IMG/VR virus record: IMGVR_UViG_2778261005_000027
Source of the DNA: a virus
Taxonomy: Duplodnaviria > Heunggongvirae > Uroviricota > Caudoviricetes
Length of the DNA: 11,708 nucleotides
Strand: one strand, 5' to 3'
Numbering within the stretch: the stretch's first letter is position 1; every line of letters starts with the position of its first letter. Below the pieces are notes generated by a model. The model searched no databases and was not told where the DNA came from. It saw only the letters and a list, made by a program, of their open reading frames with translations. This document shows positions 2,622-10,156 of this stretch, piece by piece. The translations under genes and the position numbers were made by a program.

Positions 2622-3083
2622 ATGAAAAAAACACGCGAAGTGATTGCAACTCCAGAAGCGAGCAAGAATTTAAAAGCCGCATGGAATGCAAGAAAAAAAG
2701 AGCTGAAGCTGACTCAAGAGTTGGCGGCTGAGTTGTTGGGATTCGAATCTCAAGGCACCGTTAGCCAGTATCTGAACGGCAAGATACCGGTAAATACCGA
2801 CGCTGCGCTAAAATTTGCGGCTCTGTTAAAGGTAAAACCAGAGGACATTCGAGAAGACCTTAAAGACTTAATGAATTATGTAAGATCATCAGATACTTAT
2901 GATGATAGCTTTTCAGGCAAAGGATGGAGGCTGGTCAATGAAGAACAGGCAGAGTTACTTAACCTCTTCGAGATTCTACCTGCGTCAGAAAAAGCCAAAC
3001 TCCTTAACCAGCTACGTGGACTAAACAAGCTCTACGAGGAAGCCTTCGAGAACATGCTGGCACTAAAGAAACGTAACCAGTAG
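2622..3083 (+). CDS. racR: Prophage repressor (CI-like) with N-terminal helix-turn-helix, 153 aa
   Basis: Helix-turn-helix segment LTQELAAELLGFESQGTVSQYLNG. The gene is divergent from the Cro-like ydaS and followed by a bidirectional terminator. My recollection of K-12 RacR is 158 aa, so the start or allele may differ. Confidence 0.8.
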   Translation: MKKTREVIATPEASKNLKAAWNARKKELKLTQELAAELLGFESQGTVSQYLNGKIPVNTDAALKFAALLKVKPEDIREDLKDLMNYVRSSDTYDDSFSGKGWRLVNEEQAELLNLFEILPASEKAKLLNQLRGLNKLYEEAFENMLALKKRNQ

Positions 3084-3109
3084 CCACCGCTCACTACCCC
3101 ACCCACAAC

Positions 3110-3143
3110 AAAAAAAAACCGACGTCTTAGTCGGTTTTTTTTG
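3110..3143. terminator. Bidirectional rho-independent terminator after racR
   Basis: A9 tract, then stem CCGAC / GTCGG (3119-3123 and 3130-3134) with loop GTCTTA, then a T8 tract (3135-3142). The A-tract/stem/T-tract symmetry allows termination in both directions. Confidence 0.75.
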
Positions 3144-3199
3144 TGCCATAACTTCTGCAAATCAGCTGTATAACTAATATTTTTCCCTTGAAAAAACAT

Positions 3200-3268
3200 T
3201 TACATAGTTACAAAATCAAAAATATAATACGCCTTGCTGTTGACTTAAAATATACGTGTCACTAATAT
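3200..3268 (+). promoter_or_regulatory. Two tandem sigma70-like promoters for the early-left operon (pL analogue)
   Basis: P1 is TTACAT (3200-3205), 17 bp, TATAAT (3223-3228). P2 is TTGACT (3240-3245), 17 bp, TAATAT (3263-3268). Both lie downstream of the racR terminator and upstream of ydaG. Confidence 0.55.
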
Positions 3269-3335
3269 TTCTATCGAGAACAGCACGGCGCTGTAGGTTT
3301 TAGTTCCGCCACCCGGCGTTAAGGGGAGAGATAAA

Positions 3336-3470
3336 ATGGTGCATTACGAAGTAGTTCAGTATTTGATGGATTGTTGCGGTATCACTTACAGCCAAGCTGT
3401 ACAGGCTCTACGCAGCAACGACTGGGATCTCTGGCAGGCAGAAGCCGCTATATGCAGCAACAAGATGTGA
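3336..3470 (+). CDS. ydaG: Small Rac prophage protein, 44 aa (MVHYEVVQYLMDCCGITYSQAVQALRSNDWDLWQAEAAICSNKM)
   Basis: I translated this by hand; it is below the ORF-track length cut-off. An AAGGGGAGAG Shine-Dalgarno precedes the ATG at 3336. The 44-aa length and position match my recollection of K-12 YdaG. Confidence 0.75.
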   Translation: MVHYEVVQYLMDCCGITYSQAVQALRSNDWDLWQAEAAICSNKM

Positions 3471-3480
3471 GATTCGCAAA

Positions 3481-3636
3481 ATGCAAAAAATCGACCTCGG
3501 CAACAACGAATCCCTAGTGTGTGGCGTGTTCCCCAACCAGGATGGAACGTTCACCGCCATGACGTATACCAAAAGCAAAACGTTTAAAACCGAAGCTGGC
3601 GCACGTCGTTGGTTGGGAAGACATTCAGGTGAGTAA
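3481..3636 (+). CDS. ydaF: Small Rac prophage protein, 51 aa (MQKIDLGNNESLVCGVFPNQDGTFTAMTYTKSKTFKTEAGARRWLGRHSGE)
   Basis: I translated this by hand. The 51-aa length and position match my recollection of K-12 YdaF. Its TAA stop (3634-3636) lies 1 nt before the next ATG. Confidence 0.75.
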   Translation: MQKIDLGNNESLVCGVFPNQDGTFTAMTYTKSKTFKTEAGARRWLGRHSGE

Positions 3637-3637
3637 A

Positions 3638-4000
3638 ATGAACGAGACAGAATTAAAACACGTTATCGCTCTGCTTCTGGAGGATGCAAAGCGCCTCCAG
3701 CAGCTGGAACCAAATGCAGGCACTGAAGAACGAATTATTATGGCTAATAAAAGTCTACATTCTGCATATGATACAAATACAAAGCAAACAGATAAAAATA
3801 TTATTGTTTATGGGCACAGCGTTAACAGAGAATTTGCTTACTTTGTTCTGGAAAAATATCAACCTACATTTTGCCGGATAATAGAAGAACTAACATTAAA
3901 AGGCAAAGATAAAGAGTTTGTTGAAAATGCTGTGGCAACGGCAAGCGCAGCAGCCGTTGCCAGTATCAAATCAATGATTACTCTAGCGATTAACCAATAA
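3638..4000 (+). CDS. Hypothetical protein, 120 aa (ORF track gives 123 aa from GTG 3629); AT-rich cargo gene in the position sieB occupies in K-12 Rac
   Basis: A GGTGAG Shine-Dalgarno lies 4 nt before the ATG at 3638, consistent with coupling to ydaF. The gene is visibly more AT-rich than its flanks (by eye). I recognise no domain. The C-terminus AVATASAAAVASIKSMITLAI is moderately hydrophobic. Confidence 0.6.
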   Translation: MNETELKHVIALLLEDAKRLQQLEPNAGTEERIIMANKSLHSAYDTNTKQTDKNIIVYGHSVNREFAYFVLEKYQPTFCRIIEELTLKGKDKEFVENAVATASAAAVASIKSMITLAINQ

Positions 4001-4169
4001 ACCCAGGGGGGATATCACGCTGAGGCGGGTTAAGAAGCTCGGTAAACTCCGCTCTCAGGCGTTGAACTTCTGAAATAAAATCGGCTTCACTGCAATCCCA
4101 GCCTTTGGGGTGCTTAAGTCGCAAATATTCAAAAACTAACGAATCAATTTCATTCATATTGGATAGCAC
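3990..4169 (-). CDS. Hypothetical small protein, about 59 aa from GTG (55 aa from ATG at complement 4155-4157), ending DIPPGFIG like YdaU
   Basis: An AAGGAGA Shine-Dalgarno lies 6 nt upstream of the GTG at complement 4167-4169. An extended -10 promoter element (TGgTATACT) lies at complement 4203-4211. The C-terminal ...ELLNPPQRDIPPGFIG matches the YdaU C-terminus ...ETLLRQVNTVSLPDSAIPPGFRG using different codons. The longer 115-aa ORF-track version has no Shine-Dalgarno and would contain this promoter. Confidence 0.5.
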   Translation of the reverse strand: MLSNMNEIDSLVFEYLRLKHPKGWDCSEADFISEVQRLRAEFTELLNPPQRDIPPGFIG

Positions 4170-4354
4170 AATTATTCTCCTTACTGGTTGTGTGAGAACT
4201 CCAGTATACCACCGAGCCTGAAGTGGTAAAAAGACAGGCGCACAACACGAAGGCGCATTTCCGGTATCCATAAAGAGTCGGTCTTGTCTGTTAAATTTAA
4301 ATGGTGGGAGTGCGCCTCCGGTTGTAAATAACGACATTGCTGTGTCTAGTCTTT

Positions 4355-4398
4355 GGCGGCATCAGTTCTACTCCGTAGCTGCCCTGCCGCCCCTTTTT
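4355..4398 (+). terminator. Plus-strand rho-independent terminator: GC-rich compound hairpin followed by a T5 tract
   Basis: Outer stem GGCGGCA (4355-4361) pairs with TGCCGCC (4385-4391). Inner stems are CAG/CTG and CTAC/GTAG with loop TCC. A T-tract follows at 4394-4398. On the minus strand the hairpin is followed by AAAG, so it acts in the plus direction only. Confidence 0.6.
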
Positions 4399-4581
4399 AA
4401 AGTGAATTTTGTGATGCGGTGAATGCGGCTAAGCGCACGCGGAACAGTTAAAAAGCTATTGTCCTTCGTAGCAGAGTTATGGGTGAAATATCCGGCGTTA
4501 ATTGTTAACTGGTTAACGTCACCTGGAGGCACCAGGCACCGCATCAACAAAGTTCACTTCAGTGATGAAAGGTGAGAGAAA

Positions 4582-5433
4582 ATGTTGAATGTAGCTATTG
4601 AAAACCAGAACGGGTGGAATTATAGTGCACCTGCACCTCATAAAGCGGGTGCCGGGCGTGGAAACCCGATGATGACTACTGCGCATAACCGCGCTCAGGC
4701 GGTTTTTTTATGCGTAATGCACAGCCACATTCAGATTATGGTGGGGCGTGCAGGGCAGCCGAAAGGCTGGCCGGTTTCGGTAGTCACCGGTATTTCCACC
4801 CCTGTACGTCTCACCACCCTTATGGTCGTGGAAAGCCTTGGTGGTGAGTTATTTAAACTGACTATCGAGGCTGCCATCATGGCTACTATCCCTACCCTTT
4901 CTCACCCTGACGTAACCATCGAAAATGGTCGTGCTGCCACTACGTCTGTTGCAGTTGCAGAGTTTTTCCGCAAGCTGCATAAAAACGTCATTCAAAAAAT
5001 TGAAGCTCTGGAATGTTCCTCAGAATTCACTGAGCTTAATTTTAAGCCAAGTGAATACACCGACTCAACCGGGCGCAAACTCCCAATGTACCAAATCACC
5101 AAAAACGGCTTCGTTTTCCTGGTGATGGGTTTCACTGGCAAAAAAGCCGCTGCATTCAAAGAGGCCTACATCGCTGAGTTCGACCGCATGGAAGCAGAGC
5201 TACGCCAGAATAATACCACTCCCACAAACAAAATCATTCCGGGCGATGGGCGCACTCTGGTTGTTCGCTTCGACAAATTCGGCAACGTCGAATTCACTGA
5301 AACCGTTCCTGATGGCGCTCTCGTCTGTACCCTGGACACTTTCCGCCTTTATCTGGAGAAACAGGGCTGGACTCTTGTAAACCGAAGCGCAATTAAAAAT
5401 ATGACCGTCGAGCAGTTGCTGAGTATTAAATAG
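4582..5433 (+). CDS. Rha-family phage regulatory protein (longest ORF 283 aa; Rha-like domain begins near an alternative ATG at 4879, giving 184 aa)
   Basis: The segment TTSVAVAEFFRKLHKNVIQKIEAL ... YQITKNGFVFLVMGFTGKKAAAFKEAYIAEFDRME resembles the conserved Rha (Phage_pRha) N-terminal domain as I remember it. Both the ATG at 4582 (GGTGAG Shine-Dalgarno) and the ATG at 4879 (GAGG 8 nt upstream) are plausible starts. Confidence 0.6.
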   Translation: MLNVAIENQNGWNYSAPAPHKAGAGRGNPMMTTAHNRAQAVFLCVMHSHIQIMVGRAGQPKGWPVSVVTGISTPVRLTTLMVVESLGGELFKLTIEAAIMATIPTLSHPDVTIENGRAATTSVAVAEFFRKLHKNVIQKIEALECSSEFTELNFKPSEYTDSTGRKLPMYQITKNGFVFLVMGFTGKKAAAFKEAYIAEFDRMEAELRQNNTTPTNKIIPGDGRTLVVRFDKFGNVEFTETVPDGALVCTLDTFRLYLEKQGWTLVNRSAIKNMTVEQLLSIK

Positions 5434-5479
5434 TTTTCTGGAATTTTCTTAATACGAGAAATTTATTAAGGAGATAATT

Positions 5480-9768: not shown

Positions 9769-9975
9769 ATGACAAAAACTTTGAGATATGACGATGTTAA
9801 ACCATGTCCGTTTTGTGGTTGTCCATCAGTAACGGTGAAAGACATTTCATGATATTACCGGGCAAAATGCAACGGATGCGAATCCCGAACTGGCTATGGT
9901 GGAAGTGAAAAAGAAGCGCTCGAAAGATGGGATAAACGAACCACTGAAAATATTAATGGAGGCGTTCATGTATAA
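9769..9975 (+). pseudogene. ralR: ralR (lar, restriction-alleviation / type I toxin) reading frame interrupted by an in-frame TGA at 9850-9852
   Basis: The frame reads MTKTLRYDDVKPCPFCGCPSVTVKDIS-stop-YYRAKCNGCESRTGYGGSEKEALERWDKRTTENINGGVHV-stop. The stop separates the two CxxC halves of a zinc ribbon. Counting from the TTG at 9781 gives 64 codons, the length I recall for K-12 RalR, where I believe a Gly codon (GGA) occupies this position. Confidence 0.55.
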
Positions 9976-10156
9976 AATTACCGCTACAATTGAAAAGGAA
10001 GGTGGCACTCCTACTAACTGGACAAGATATTCAAAATCTAAACTAACGAAATCAGAATGCGAAAAAATGCTCTCAGGTAAAAAAGAAGCAGGCGTTTCCA
10101 GAGAGCAGAAAGTAAAACTGATAAATTTTAATTGCGAGAAACTTCAGTCCTCGTGA
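9968..10156 (+). CDS. ydaC: Small Rac prophage protein (ydaC-like), 62 aa from ATG 9968 (in-frame alternative starts at 9956 and 9896)
   Basis: A GGAGG Shine-Dalgarno lies 5 nt before the ATG at 9968. The gene sits between ralR and xisR as in K-12. I cannot match the exact length to K-12 YdaC. Confidence 0.65.
   Translation: MYKITATIEKEGGTPTNWTRYSKSKLTKSECEKMLSGKKEAGVSREQKVKLINFNCEKLQSS

What the first reader, a model, noticed from the sequence alone, without database searches (positions are those of the whole stretch)
3638..4000. ORF of unknown function is compositionally distinct from the rest of the prophage
The 120-aa ORF tightly coupled to ydaF is visibly much more AT-rich than the surrounding roughly 50 percent GC sequence (judged by eye, not computed), with runs such as aataaaagtctacattctgcatatgatacaaatacaaagcaaacagataaaaatattattg. 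That suggests recent acquisition from a lower-GC donor, as is common for defence, anti-defence and other moron genes. The protein has a moderately hydrophobic alanine-rich C-terminal helix and no motif I recognise.
Basis: seen in the sequence. Interest (0 to 1): 0.45.

Follow-up and report, generated by a model that had tools for sequence, protein, structure and literature searches.

The report
Two-part prophage gene in swappable cassette
The AT-rich ORF is a real but uncharacterised early prophage gene: a widely conserved 40-residue head is fused to a rarer domain, and that domain travels as a small swappable cassette with an oppositely oriented partner gene in the slot where related phages carry the exclusion gene sieB.

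Summary
The window is a Rac-like prophage, 100% identical to E. coli O157:H7 strain 2571.

**Observation.** The ORF (3638-4000, 120 aa, 1 nt after ydaF) has 37.7% GC against 46.3% for the window, and the lowest GC3 of any gene (0.30). Two caveats apply. The drop starts only at about codon 30, and ydaE, racC, ralR and part of int are nearly as AT-rich. Codon usage is not an outlier.

**What it is.**
- Residues 1-43 are the head of the e14 YmfJ family, under strong protein-level selection. About 190 proteins share it, with unrelated tails.
- Residues 53-120 are a separate beta-hairpin plus two-helix domain (pLDDT 90). It also occurs as stand-alone 72-130 aa proteins in enterobacterial prophages (phrog_23495, function unknown).
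- DNA homology to 61 related loci stops at 3723-3728 and resumes at 4175-4180. The AT-rich stretch is therefore a roughly 450-bp exchangeable cassette.
- The cassette also holds a convergent 59-aa YdiH-like gene (3990-4169). It is driven by a conserved sieB-type promoter and SD (4177-4230).
- This gene pair recurs in 12 of 13 loci examined. A hairpin in the domain's Ala-rich helix codons follows the partner's stop and is a canonical terminator in several stand-alone relatives.

**Function.** Unknown. My best guess is the induction-phase half of a mutually exclusive lysogen/lytic pair. No low-GC donor is needed, and no known defence family matches.

The parts
3199..3228 (+). Candidate early-left (pL-like) promoter, TTTACA-18-TATAAT. 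It would drive ydaG-ydaF-ORF120 and the genes beyond.
   Evidence: Consensus scan, 11 of 12 matches. It lies between the racR-like repressor gene (2622-3083) and ydaG. No promoter-like site was found between here and ORF120.
3481..3636 (+). ydaF (DUF1391). ORF120 is translationally coupled to it.
   Evidence: Pfam PF07151, E 9.6e-29. The stop is 1 nt before the ORF120 ATG.
3638..4000 (+). ORF120: an intact 120-aa coding sequence made of a YmfJ-type head, a linker and a phrog_23495-type domain.
   Evidence: Full-length homologues at 45-62% identity occur in Salmonella and Enterobacter. dN/dS is 0.12-0.20. The frame stays open in 11 of 20,000 shuffles. PGAP calls only 3638-3757 and marks it a pseudogene fragment.
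3638..3766 (+). N-module (aa 1-43): the conserved helical hairpin of the YmfJ family.
   Evidence: phrog_30817, 12693, 2982 and 32391 match at E 6.6e-20 to 5.6e-12, all on residues 1-47. Identity to e14 YmfJ is confined to residues 1-43. Among 29 distinct DNA versions, 34 of 35 third codon positions vary, with pN/pS 0.17. AF2 gives helices 3-23 and 27-47.
3767..3793 (+). Hypervariable, disordered, polar linker (aa 44-52). This is the most AT-rich stretch.
   Evidence: pLDDT is below 50 for residues 46-52. The alignment columns here are rich in indels. 60-nt windows at 3730-3819 are 28-30% GC.
3794..3997 (+). C-module (aa 53-120): a beta-hairpin followed by two long helices.
   Evidence: The AF2 model has pLDDT 90 and pTM 0.70. 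A profile search found 29 relatives, mostly stand-alone proteins of 59-143 aa. 15 of the 25 sequences aligned in A4 (window C-module, 21 stand-alone relatives, three fused homologues) match phrog_23495. pN/pS is 0.21-0.26 upstream of the hairpin.
3729..4177 (.). Exchangeable cassette, 37.9% GC: ORF120 codons 31-120 plus the convergent small gene.
   Evidence: In blastn against 61 YmfJ-family loci, the left homology ends at 3723-3728 in 52 loci and the right homology starts at 4175-4180 in 54. Each tail class comes with its own convergent ORF.
3933..3962 (-). 10-bp GC-rich hairpin inside the codons of the Ala-rich helix, about 30 nt downstream of the partner gene's stop. It is a candidate 3'-end or terminator hairpin for the minus-strand transcript, but its U-tract is displaced (CAGCAUUUUC).
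   Evidence: RNAfold on the 57-nt segment gives -20.6 kcal/mol, z -4.0. A hairpin sits at the same codon position in all 12 loci. In stand-alone relatives it reads ACCACCGC-UUCG-GCGGUGGU-UUUUU, and the terminator scan called it in L101.
3990..4169 (-). ORF(-): a 59-aa YdiH-like partner gene with a GTG start. It is convergent with ORF120 and overlaps it by 11 nt.
   Evidence: PGAP annotates this CDS. Orthologues exist in Salmonella (56% identity) and Enterobacter. dN/dS is 0.09-0.22 for the short frame and 0.57-0.77 for the upstream part of the longer 115-aa frame. hhalign to YdiH-positive partners gives probability 85%, E 6e-6.
4177..4247 (-). Conserved expression element of the slot: -35 TTTACC (4230-4225), extended -10 TGgTATACT (4211-4203) and SD AAGGAG (4182-4177).
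   Evidence: The promoter scan found it. It is 91-93% identical in e14-type loci whose YmfJ head is only 73-77% identical. The same hexamers stand upstream of the partner gene in E. coli locus L111.

Best explanation
**Shown**
- ORF120 is a genuine gene of the repressor-controlled early-left operon of a Rac-like prophage.
- It is a fusion of two independent modules. The first is the YmfJ-family helical-hairpin head. The second is a small beta-hairpin plus two-helix domain that elsewhere exists as a stand-alone protein.
- The AT-rich part is not the whole gene. It is a roughly 450-bp cassette (3729-4177), recombined between two conserved anchors: the YmfJ head on the left and a sieB-type promoter and SD on the right.
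- The cassette carries two convergent genes with overlapping 3' ends: the C-module and a 59-aa YdiH-like gene. This pair is conserved across genera and across genomic contexts.
- A hairpin written into the C-module's Ala-rich helix codons follows the partner's stop.

**Inferred mechanism**
- In the lysogen, the conserved minus-strand promoter expresses the YdiH-like protein, and its transcript ends at the hairpin.
- On induction, pL transcription runs through ydaG-ydaF-ORF120 and on, antisense, through the partner gene. This makes ORF120 protein and shuts the partner off. The arrangement is an excludon-type switch.
- The C-module probably binds or counteracts the partner protein or its effect, in the way a lytic-phase self-immunity factor answers a lysogen-expressed exclusion-type function. 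The YmfJ head probably contacts a conserved host component.
- Neither protein has a catalytic motif, so both most likely act by binding.
For: **Modular anatomy**
- PHROG hits are confined to residues 1-47.
- About 190 proteins share the head with unrelated tails. Versions of 42-56 aa consisting of the head alone also exist.
- The C-module profile finds stand-alone proteins.

**Both modules and the partner are under purifying selection**
-.

**Cassette and slot**
- Junctions.
- The conserved promoter and SD are shared with e14 and phiES15, and the core of the element lies upstream of lambda sieB.
- K-12 Rac has sieB in this slot. In lambda, sieB is likewise convergent with the first pL gene.

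**Pair conservation**
- The C-module gene has a convergent, 3'-overlapping YdiH-like gene in 12 of 13 loci examined. Nine of these, counting this window, lie in an immunity or early-left setting; three lie in a KPP10-like tail cluster.
- In every case the C-module gene runs with the lytic operon and the partner runs against it.

**Hairpin and terminator**
-.

**Expression logic, from the literature on equivalent loci**
- e14 ymfJ is induced late in the SOS response (log2FC 4-4.8) under CI-like control, and the protein was detected (PMC11002266).
- ymfI-ymfJ and sieB-ydaF are listed as convergent excludons from RNA-seq (PMC12288877).
Against: - Physical interaction between the C-module and the partner was not tested. 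Their co-occurrence could reflect linkage alone.
- In this window the hairpin lacks an adjacent U-tract, so termination there is uncertain.
- The promoter is a consensus match, not a mapped start site. In lambda only the upstream core of the element is conserved, not the -10.
- Expression timing is inferred from e14 and K-12 Rac, not measured in this prophage.
- The fusion to the YmfJ head may be tolerated rather than functional, because stand-alone C-modules occupy the same position in other phages.
Confidence: 0.55

Rival explanations
1. ORF120 is a single foreign moron gene, recently acquired from a lower-GC donor, and acts on its own as a defence or anti-defence factor.
For: - GC and GC3 are low.
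- The gene is rare in E. coli: 9 of 5,426 genomes.
- It lies in an accessory region where K-12 Rac has sieB.
- Early-left operons of lambdoid phages do carry anti-restriction genes such as ral.
Against: - The first ~43 residues are a conserved lambdoid family with normal GC.
- The exchanged unit includes a second gene.
- All relatives are in enterobacterial prophages, at 36-53% GC.
- Codon usage is not an outlier.
- The ORF has no promoter or terminator of its own.
- There is no PADLOC hit.
Confidence: 0.12
2. The C-module and the YdiH-like gene form a toxin-antitoxin-like or abortive-infection pair. One product is harmful to the cell or to superinfecting phage, and the other is its antidote. 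Convergent antisense overlap tunes their ratio.
For: - The two small genes are strictly linked across contexts.
- Their 3' ends overlap, as in antisense-regulated pairs.
- The same slot elsewhere holds a weak GhoS-like match (E 2.8e-4) and SieB, which I recall as an abortive-infection protein (for its place in the slot).
- IS2 disrupts the head of ORF120 in two genomes while the partner gene is kept.
Against: - Neither protein matches a toxin or antitoxin family.
- Neither is hydrophobic enough for a membrane toxin.
- The chromosomal ydiH of K-12 stands alone, with no C-module-like neighbour.
- Classical type II pairs are co-directional.
Confidence: 0.15
3. ORF120 is a non-functional chimera, as implied by the PGAP pseudogene call. 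A truncated ymfJ-like gene happens to read through into inserted DNA.
For: - PGAP annotates only 3638-3757, as 'incomplete, missing C-terminus'.
- The recombination junction lies inside the ORF.
- Many other YmfJ tails are short and look arbitrary.
Against: - The same head-plus-domain fusion is kept in E. coli, Salmonella and Enterobacter at 45-62% identity, with synonymous sites saturated and dN/dS 0.12-0.26.
- The C-module folds confidently and belongs to a family of stand-alone proteins.
- The chance of the frame staying open is about 5e-4.
Confidence: 0.05
4. The two genes are functionally unrelated neighbours. They travel together only because the partner's 3' end and terminator overlap the C-module gene. 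ORF120 has a role of its own in early lytic development, for example modulating a host factor through the YmfJ head.
For: - The YmfJ head occurs with many unrelated tails and cargo genes, and also alone. This implies a function independent of the cargo.
- Physical overlap is enough to explain co-inheritance.
Against: - The pair persists through very deep divergence: 20-30% identity, three genomic contexts and overlaps from 4 to 185 nt. Recombination would then have had ample opportunity to separate unrelated genes.
- The orientation rule relative to lytic operons holds in every case.
Confidence: 0.13

Closest known systems
YmfJ / YmfI of the e14 prophage (E. coli K-12)
   Same: - ORF120 residues 1-43 are homologous to YmfJ residues 1-43.
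- Both genes are among the first after the repressor gene in the early-left direction. ymfJ is the very first; ORF120 follows ydaG and ydaF.
- Both are followed by a convergent gene with an overlapping 3' end, driven by the same conserved promoter and SD element, 91% identical.
   Different: - The C-terminal halves are unrelated.
- YmfI is unrelated to ORF(-).
- Here two small genes, ydaG and ydaF, precede the gene.
- YmfJ itself has no known function.
sieB locus of lambda, P22 and Rac (superinfection exclusion B)
   Same: - The position and orientation match. Each is a gene with its own promoter, convergent with the first pL genes.
- A conserved sequence upstream of lambda sieB (35 nt, 91%) and K-12 Rac homology from 4208 onward match the promoter flank here.
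- sieB-ydaF is reported as an excludon.
   Different: - ORF(-) has 59 aa against 162-184 aa for SieB, and shows no sequence similarity to SieB in the Pfam scan.
- ORF(-) shows no hydrophobic segment.
- The sieB loci compared here, lambda and K-12 Rac, have no gene like the C-module opposite sieB.
Pfam PF15930 YdiH (domain of unknown function) and chromosomal E. coli YdiH
   Same: - 7 of 13 partner proteins hit PF15930, best E 5.3e-7.
- The partner alignment matches K-12 YdiH with hhalign probability 96%, E 1.2e-9.
- The window protein aligns with the YdiH-positive group at probability 85%.
   Different: - The window protein itself does not reach the Pfam model at E <= 0.1.
- Chromosomal ydiH has no convergent C-module gene.
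- The function of YdiH is unknown.
phrog_23495 (phage protein family, unknown function)
   Same: - 15 of the 25 sequences aligned in A4 match it, best E 2.1e-47.
- The predicted fold and the conserved G, P and AAKTTAEAVV-type positions are shared.
   Different: - The window's C-module alone does not hit the PHROG model at E <= 0.001.
- Here it is fused to a YmfJ head rather than standing alone.
Excludons (convergent genes with overlapping transcripts and mutually exclusive expression)
   Same: - The two genes are convergent and their coding 3' ends overlap, leaving no intergenic room for separate terminators.
- The equivalent K-12 pairs are listed by ExcludonFinder.
   Different: Transcript overlap and mutual exclusion have not been measured for this pair.
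LUZ24 gp4, a 46-residue phage protein solved as a helical hairpin (PDB 6yse)
   Same: It is a helical hairpin of about 45 residues in a phage protein, and Foldseek aligns it with the N-module (TM 0.73 on the target).
   Different: - The match is not significant (E 2.3, 14% identity).
- Helical hairpins are a generic fold.
- From memory, gp4 is an early protein that inhibits an H-NS-type silencer. I did not test that, so it is only a lead for what the head might do.

Membership tests
YmfJ family (phrog_30817 / 12693 / 2982 / 32391) | Conserved N-terminal ~43-residue motif (ELKHVIALLLEDAKRLQQxEPNAGTEARI) | tested here: met
   The PHROG models match at E 6.6e-20 to 5.6e-12 on residues 1-47. BLASTP against e14 YmfJ gives E 6e-21, with near-identity in residues 1-33.
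YmfJ family (phrog_30817 / 12693 / 2982 / 32391) | Position among the first genes of the repressor-controlled early-left operon, followed by a convergent gene | tested here: met
   Seen in the window, e14, Stx phage 75/02, phiES15, Salmonella L003 and Enterobacter L005.
YmfJ family (phrog_30817 / 12693 / 2982 / 32391) | Similarity to YmfJ over its whole length (102 aa) | tested here: not met
   No meaningful similarity remains beyond residue ~43. Tails differ between family members in general.
phrog_23495-type domain (C-module) | Direct match of the window's residues 49-120 to the family model | tested here: not met
   No PHROG hit at E <= 0.001 for the window segment on its own.
phrog_23495-type domain (C-module) | Linkage through a profile built from its own full-length relatives | tested here: met
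   The A3 profile finds stand-alone proteins at E 3.7e-17 to 1e-3. 15 of the 25 sequences aligned in A4 match phrog_23495. The secondary-structure pattern is shared.
Pfam YdiH (PF15930), for the convergent ORF(-) | Match to the Pfam model | tested here: not met
   The window protein has no hit at E <= 0.1, while 7 of 13 related partners do hit.
Pfam YdiH (PF15930), for the convergent ORF(-) | Profile-profile similarity to YdiH-positive proteins | tested here: inconclusive
   hhalign of A6 against A7 gives probability 85%, E 6.3e-6. The combined alignment against K-12 YdiH gives probability 96.4%, but that alignment already contains YdiH-positive sequences.
SieB superinfection exclusion protein | Sequence similarity to SieB | tested here: not met
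   Neither ORF120 nor ORF(-) gives a SieB family hit in Pfam, NCBIfam or PHROGs.
SieB superinfection exclusion protein | Genomic slot and promoter: convergent with the first pL genes, own promoter | tested here: met
   K-12 Rac and lambda carry sieB in the same place and orientation. The upstream element is shared.
SieB superinfection exclusion protein | Aborts lytic growth of superinfecting phage | not testable with these tools
   This needs plating assays.
Moron (autonomous lysogenic-conversion cassette) | Own promoter and terminator; transcribed independently of the flanking operon | tested here: not met
   This holds for ORF120: no promoter-like site between 3270 and 3638, it is coupled to ydaF, and there is no terminator on the plus strand. 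The convergent ORF(-) does have a promoter and a downstream hairpin.
Known anti-phage defence systems (PADLOC-DB v2) | Match to any defence protein model | tested here: not met
   ORF120, ORF(-) and the Rha-like gene all give no family at E <= 1. ydaG also gives none, and ydaF only a chance-level AbiEi hit, E 0.053.
Lambda CIII (FtsH inhibitor encoded just upstream of kil) | Sequence or profile similarity to CIII | tested here: not met
   hhalign of the N-module alignment against lambda CIII gives probability 0.3%, E 0.18. There is no PF02061 hit.

The most novel reading that the evidence does not exclude
The interval between the YmfJ head and the sieB-type promoter is a dedicated cargo slot of Rac-, e14- and lambda-type prophages, delimited by recombination anchors. 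On this reading, the C-module / YdiH-like pair is a new two-component system. A protein made in the lysogen excludes or aborts other phages, or otherwise modifies the host. Its cognate protein, made on induction, neutralises it. The switch is enforced by convergent transcription and by a terminator written into the coding sequence of the opposing gene.
Probability: 0.22. Interest if true: 0.68.

Novelty: new member of a known kind. Interest (0 to 1): 0.42.

Why it matters
As first stated, the finding is ordinary: an AT-rich accessory ORF in a prophage.

The sequence analysis adds three things.
- **A precise exchange site.** It defines a site in Rac- and e14-type prophages, with part of the right anchor also upstream of lambda sieB. 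The site is bounded by a protein-coding anchor and a promoter/SD anchor. Unrelated small cargo genes are swapped into it in frame. This gives a simple rule for harvesting candidate prophage-expressed genes from thousands of enterobacterial genomes.
- **An uncharacterised gene pair.** The convergent pair is conserved from E. coli to Yersinia and occurs in two kinds of phage module. One member is related to the orphan E. coli protein YdiH.
- **Dual coding.** The most conserved peptide motif of one gene is also, on the other strand, the terminator hairpin of its partner.

It also corrects an annotation. PGAP marks this intact gene as a pseudogene fragment.

If the pair turns out to be an exclusion and self-immunity switch, it would join sieB/esc as a model for how prophages disarm their own defences on induction.

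Tried and rejected
1. **N-module conserved as an RNA or DNA element (nut/boxA-boxB-like: CGCTCTG followed by a CTGGAGG...CCTCCAG hairpin).** Rejected. 34 of 35 third codon positions vary among 29 DNA versions and the amino acids are nearly invariant. Rfam finds nothing there.
2. **N-module as a lambda CIII analogue, because it sits just upstream of kil in several phages.** hhalign gives probability 0.3%. No support.
3. **The long 115-aa frame for the convergent gene.** Rejected in favour of the 59-aa GTG start. There is an AAGGAG SD 7 nt upstream, and the orthologues use TTG starts at the same spacing. dN/dS is 0.57-0.77 with low dS in the upstream part, which is the conserved promoter.
4. **The Ala-rich helix as a membrane anchor.** Its hydropathy is borderline here (1.49), and the equivalent helix in relatives carries K, E and D. 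Rejected.
6. **Known families.** Pfam, NCBIfam and PADLOC give nothing above noise for ORF120 or ORF(-).
7. **Phage collection.** Only 16 records carry the head and none carries the C-module. tblastn with two stand-alone relatives found nothing. One related-loci run failed and one returned nothing.
8. **Homologue search with ORF(-).** It gave only 2 near-identical hits, probably because such small genes are rarely called.
9. **Literature.** The ymfJ papers checked give only expression data, and nothing relevant to E. coli YdiH appeared among the listed hits. The e14 analysis paper (PMC331406) is not held.
10. **A low-GC donor.** No relative was found outside Enterobacterales.
11. **Known defence genes among other cargo in the slot.** There are only weak GhoS-like and Lar-like hits and one marginal PADLOC hit.
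Full report
**Setting**

The window is a Rac-like prophage. Positions 3300-4400 are 100% identical to E. coli O157:H7 strains 2571 and F6321.

With the plus strand as the early-left direction, the gene order is as follows:
- ydaV-, ydaU-, ydaT- and ydaS-like genes on the minus strand
- a racR-like repressor gene, 2622-3083
- ydaG, 3336-3470
- ydaF, 3481-3636
- the ORF in question, 3638-4000
- a convergent small gene, 3990-4169
- a Rha/Ash-type gene, 4582-5433
- kilR, ydaE, racC, recE, recT, a ralR pseudogene, xis and int

K-12 Rac has sieB on the opposite strand in place of the ORF, the small gene and the Rha-type gene.

**Checking the observation**

The ORF is real and is coupled to ydaF. The ydaF stop TAA is at 3634-3636, the ATG is at 3638, and GGTGAG lies upstream.

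| Measure | ORF120 | Comparison |
|---|---|---|
| GC | 37.7% | window 46.3%; left flank 49.0%; right flank 46.8% |
| GC3 | 0.298 | lowest of all genes in the window |
| 363-bp windows at least as AT-rich | 4.3% | - |

Three qualifications matter.
- Several other parts of the prophage are about as AT-rich: ydaE 38.4%, racC 39.5%, the ralR region 35-37.5% and the start of int about 37%.
- The drop begins inside the gene. 60-nt windows are 48-55% GC at 3640-3699 and 28-35% from 3730 to 3900.
- Codon usage scored against the other genes of the window is unremarkable: 0.776 within a range of 0.66-0.82, with 6.7% rare codons.

The open frame through the AT-rich part is not accidental. Only 11 of 20,000 shuffles of 3729-3997 stay open.

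**Two modules**

PHROG models match only residues 1-47 (four families of unknown function, E 6.6e-20 to 5.6e-12). A search of 5.8 billion proteins found 192 relatives.
- About 14 cover the full length. They come from Salmonella, Enterobacter and metagenomes, at 45-62% identity.
- The rest share only the first ~40 residues and then carry unrelated tails. Total lengths in the hit list range from 66 to 145 aa.
- Proteins of 42-56 aa that are little more than the head alone also exist.

A DNA search of complete E. coli genomes identified this head as the N-terminus of YmfJ of the e14 prophage. 507 of 5,426 genomes carry the first ~90 nt of the ORF. Only 9 carry at least 80% of it.

I considered that such strong conservation might reflect an RNA or DNA signal, since there is a boxA-like CGCTCTG and a 7-bp inverted repeat. 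The data reject this. Across 29 distinct DNA versions, 34 of 35 third codon positions vary while the peptide barely changes (pN/pS 0.17). So the head is a constrained peptide. AF2 predicts a helical hairpin, helices 3-23 and 27-47.

The alignment of full-length relatives shows three parts:
- the conserved head
- an indel-rich polar linker (pLDDT below 50 at residues 46-52), which is also the most AT-rich stretch
- a conserved C-terminal domain, residues 53-120

A profile of that domain, searched against 1.84 billion representative proteins, found 29 proteins. Most are stand-alone and 59-143 aa long. 15 of the 25 sequences aligned in A4 match phrog_23495, function unknown. Named members come from E. 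coli and Shigella (a 72-aa form on hundreds of contigs), Yersinia, Serratia, Klebsiella, Salmonella and Lelliottia.

The domain is under purifying selection.
- dN/dS is 0.12-0.17 over residues 53-120.
- pN/pS is 0.21-0.26 in the part that lies upstream of the hairpin described below.

The PGAP record calls only 3638-3757 and labels it a pseudogene 'missing C-terminus'. That is an annotation artefact of this modularity.

**The AT-rich stretch is an exchangeable cassette that contains a second gene**

I ran blastn of window 3200-4800 against 61 loci that carry the YmfJ head.
- Homology ends at 3723-3728 in 52 loci.
- Homology resumes at 4175-4180 in 54 loci.
- What lies between differs from locus to locus. 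It is usually 326-511 bp and occasionally 1.5-2.6 kb. Each tail class comes with its own convergent ORF.

Here the interval 3729-4177 is 37.9% GC.

The right anchor, 4178-4247, is 91-93% identical even in e14-type loci, where the head is only 73-77% identical. Read on the minus strand it is TTTACC, a 16-nt spacer, TGgTATACT, a short leader and AAGGAG. The cargo start codon follows about 7 nt later.

The core of the same element lies upstream of sieB in lambda (35 nt, 91%). K-12 Rac homology resumes at 4208. An E. coli locus with a stand-alone C-module has the identical hexamers.

In lambda, K-12 Rac and e14, the gene in this place (sieB, sieB and ymfI respectively) is convergent with the first pL genes. 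So this is the sieB slot, bounded by a coding anchor on one side and a promoter/SD anchor on the other.

The convergent gene here is best read as 59 aa from the GTG at 4169.
- The SD spacing fits.
- The Salmonella and Enterobacter orthologues start with TTG at the same spacing.
- dN/dS is 0.09-0.22 in the short frame. In the upstream part of the longer 115-aa frame it is 0.57-0.77 with low dS, and that part is the promoter.

**A conserved convergent pair**

The Salmonella and Enterobacter loci that carry the full-length ORF also carry an orthologue of the small gene, 53-63% identical, convergent and overlapping.

Stand-alone C-module genes have a convergent gene of about 60 aa overlapping their 3' end as well. 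This holds in three KPP10-like tail clusters, between the tube and tail-chaperone genes (L100, L101, L103). It also holds in six loci downstream of a CI-like repressor or upstream of kilR (L104, L105, L106, L108, L110, L111). One locus (L109) has an unrelated convergent gene.

Evidence that these partners form one family:
- Seven of the thirteen partners match Pfam YdiH, a domain of unknown function, best E 5.3e-7.
- The window's own protein does not match it directly. It aligns to the YdiH-positive group with hhalign probability 85%, E 6e-6.
- The family alignment matches chromosomal K-12 YdiH with probability 96%.

In all 12 loci the C-module gene runs with the surrounding lytic operon and the partner runs against it.

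**A hairpin written into the coding sequence**

The local GC bump in the Ala-rich helix (VATASAAAVAS) is a 10-bp inverted repeat at 3933-3962. It lies about 30 nt past the partner's stop on the minus strand. The 57-nt segment around it folds at -20.6 kcal/mol, z -4.0.

A hairpin occupies the same codon position in all 12 loci. In the stand-alone relatives the most conserved peptide motif, AAKTTAEAVV, is encoded by a sequence whose complement is ACCACCGC-UUCG-GCGGUGGU-UUUUU. That is a canonical intrinsic terminator for the partner gene, and the scan tool calls it in L101.

In the window, and in the Salmonella and Enterobacter copies, the stem is kept with different sequences. The U-tract, however, is displaced, so termination here is less certain.

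Consistent with a double constraint, pS is lower and pN/pS higher in this part of the gene (0.41-0.60, against 0.21-0.26 upstream).

**How it most likely works**

Shown:
- the modular anatomy
- the cassette and its two anchors
- selection on both proteins
- the conserved pairing and its orientation rule
- the hairpin

Inferred:
- In the lysogen, the minus-strand promoter expresses the YdiH-like protein.
- After repressor loss, transcription from the pL-like promoter (3199-3228) makes ORF120. Because there is no room for a plus-strand terminator, it continues antisense through the partner and silences it.

Published data on the equivalent K-12 loci fit this. e14 ymfJ is induced late in the SOS response under CI-like control, and the protein was detected (PMC11002266). 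ymfI-ymfJ and sieB-ydaF are listed as convergent excludons (PMC12288877).

Neither protein shows a catalytic motif or a membrane segment, so I expect both to act by binding.

My best guess, held at about 0.3, is that the C-module counteracts the partner or its effect during the prophage's own lytic growth. The extremely conserved head would then contact a conserved host component. A toxin-antitoxin-like reading and a 'linked but unrelated' reading remain open.

Horizontal exchange is supported, by the junctions, the rarity of the ORF and its location in an accessory slot.

A lower-GC donor is not supported.
- All relatives are in enterobacterial prophages.
- C-module genes range from 36 to 53% GC with their phages, and this copy is the lowest.
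- Codon usage is not deviant.
- Part of the AT-richness is explained by the polar linker.

The ORF is not an autonomous moron. The convergent gene is the one with its own promoter.

No known defence or anti-defence family matches. Other cargo in the same slot gives only weak GhoS-like and Lar-like hits.

**Verdict**

This is an intact, rare, modular early gene inside a cassette at the sieB slot. Its function is unknown. It is a new member of a known kind, a lambdoid accessory cassette or excludon. The architecture is tidy and testable, and it is of moderate interest.

Noticed in passing
window 4341-4392 (+): A DicF-type sRNA sits in the conserved stretch between the cassette and the Rha-like gene (Rfam RF00039, 55 bits, above the gathering score of 48). 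An STnc100 match at 4382-4565 is below its threshold.
   Followed up: no
window 4582-5433 (+), with 4620-4821: isrK (4633-4709), C4 antisense RNA (4734-4821) and a weak, sub-threshold c4 a1/b1 target-type match (4620-4672) all lie inside the 5' third of the annotated 283-aa 'Rha family' ORF. The Pfam Phage_ASH match (aa 14-109) covers the same DNA. This looks like a P1 immI-type c4-ant module. The real Rha/Ant protein may start further downstream, for example at MATIPT near 4879.
   Followed up: no
window 9974-10152 (-) and 9896-10156 (+): The RalA antitoxin sRNA is intact (218 bits). PGAP marks the ralR toxin gene in the identical record as a pseudogene with an internal stop.
   Followed up: no
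window 4208-4242; L099 (lambda) 1895-1929; L113 (K-12 ydiH upstream) about 2540-2580: The core of the slot's promoter element (GCCTGTCTTTT-ACCAC-TCAGGCTCGGTGGT) is 91% conserved upstream of lambda sieB, although lambda lacks the TATACT -10. The long frame upstream of chromosomal ydiH translates to RWYT, the same residues that CGGTGGTATACT encodes upstream of ORF(-) here; I did not read the ydiH DNA itself. The core contains two short inverted repeats with no covariation. It may be more than a promoter.
   Followed up: partly
[not shown]
   Followed up: partly
L001 6339-6458 = window 3638-3757: RefSeq/PGAP annotates only the first 40 codons and marks them a pseudogene 'missing C-terminus', although the 120-aa frame is intact and conserved.
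   Followed up: yes
loci L008, L024, L030, L007, L071/L098 (ymfI), L022, L027: Other cargo genes in the same slot include a group sharing a VRVEL...DY..LH..M...GF start, of which YmfI is one; one member hits GhoS at E 2.8e-4. There are also small Zn-ribbon proteins, one of which weakly hits Lar restriction alleviation (E 6.6e-4). None is a clear PADLOC family.
   Followed up: partly
L100, L101, L103 around 5000-5450: The same C-module / YdiH-like pair sits between the tail tube (KPP10_Orf10) and tail assembly chaperone genes of unrelated phages with about 54% GC. This is a classic moron position.
   Followed up: partly
window 3336-3470 (+): The 44-aa ydaG product matches the UBA-like domain family PF14555 just above its gathering score (24.1 against 21.8 bits, E 3e-5).
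   Followed up: no
window 3109-3142: An A-run, a CCGAC/GTCGG hairpin and a T-run follow the repressor gene. This reads as a bidirectional terminator between the repressor gene and the pL-like promoter. I saw it in the sequence; the consensus scan did not list it.
   Followed up: no
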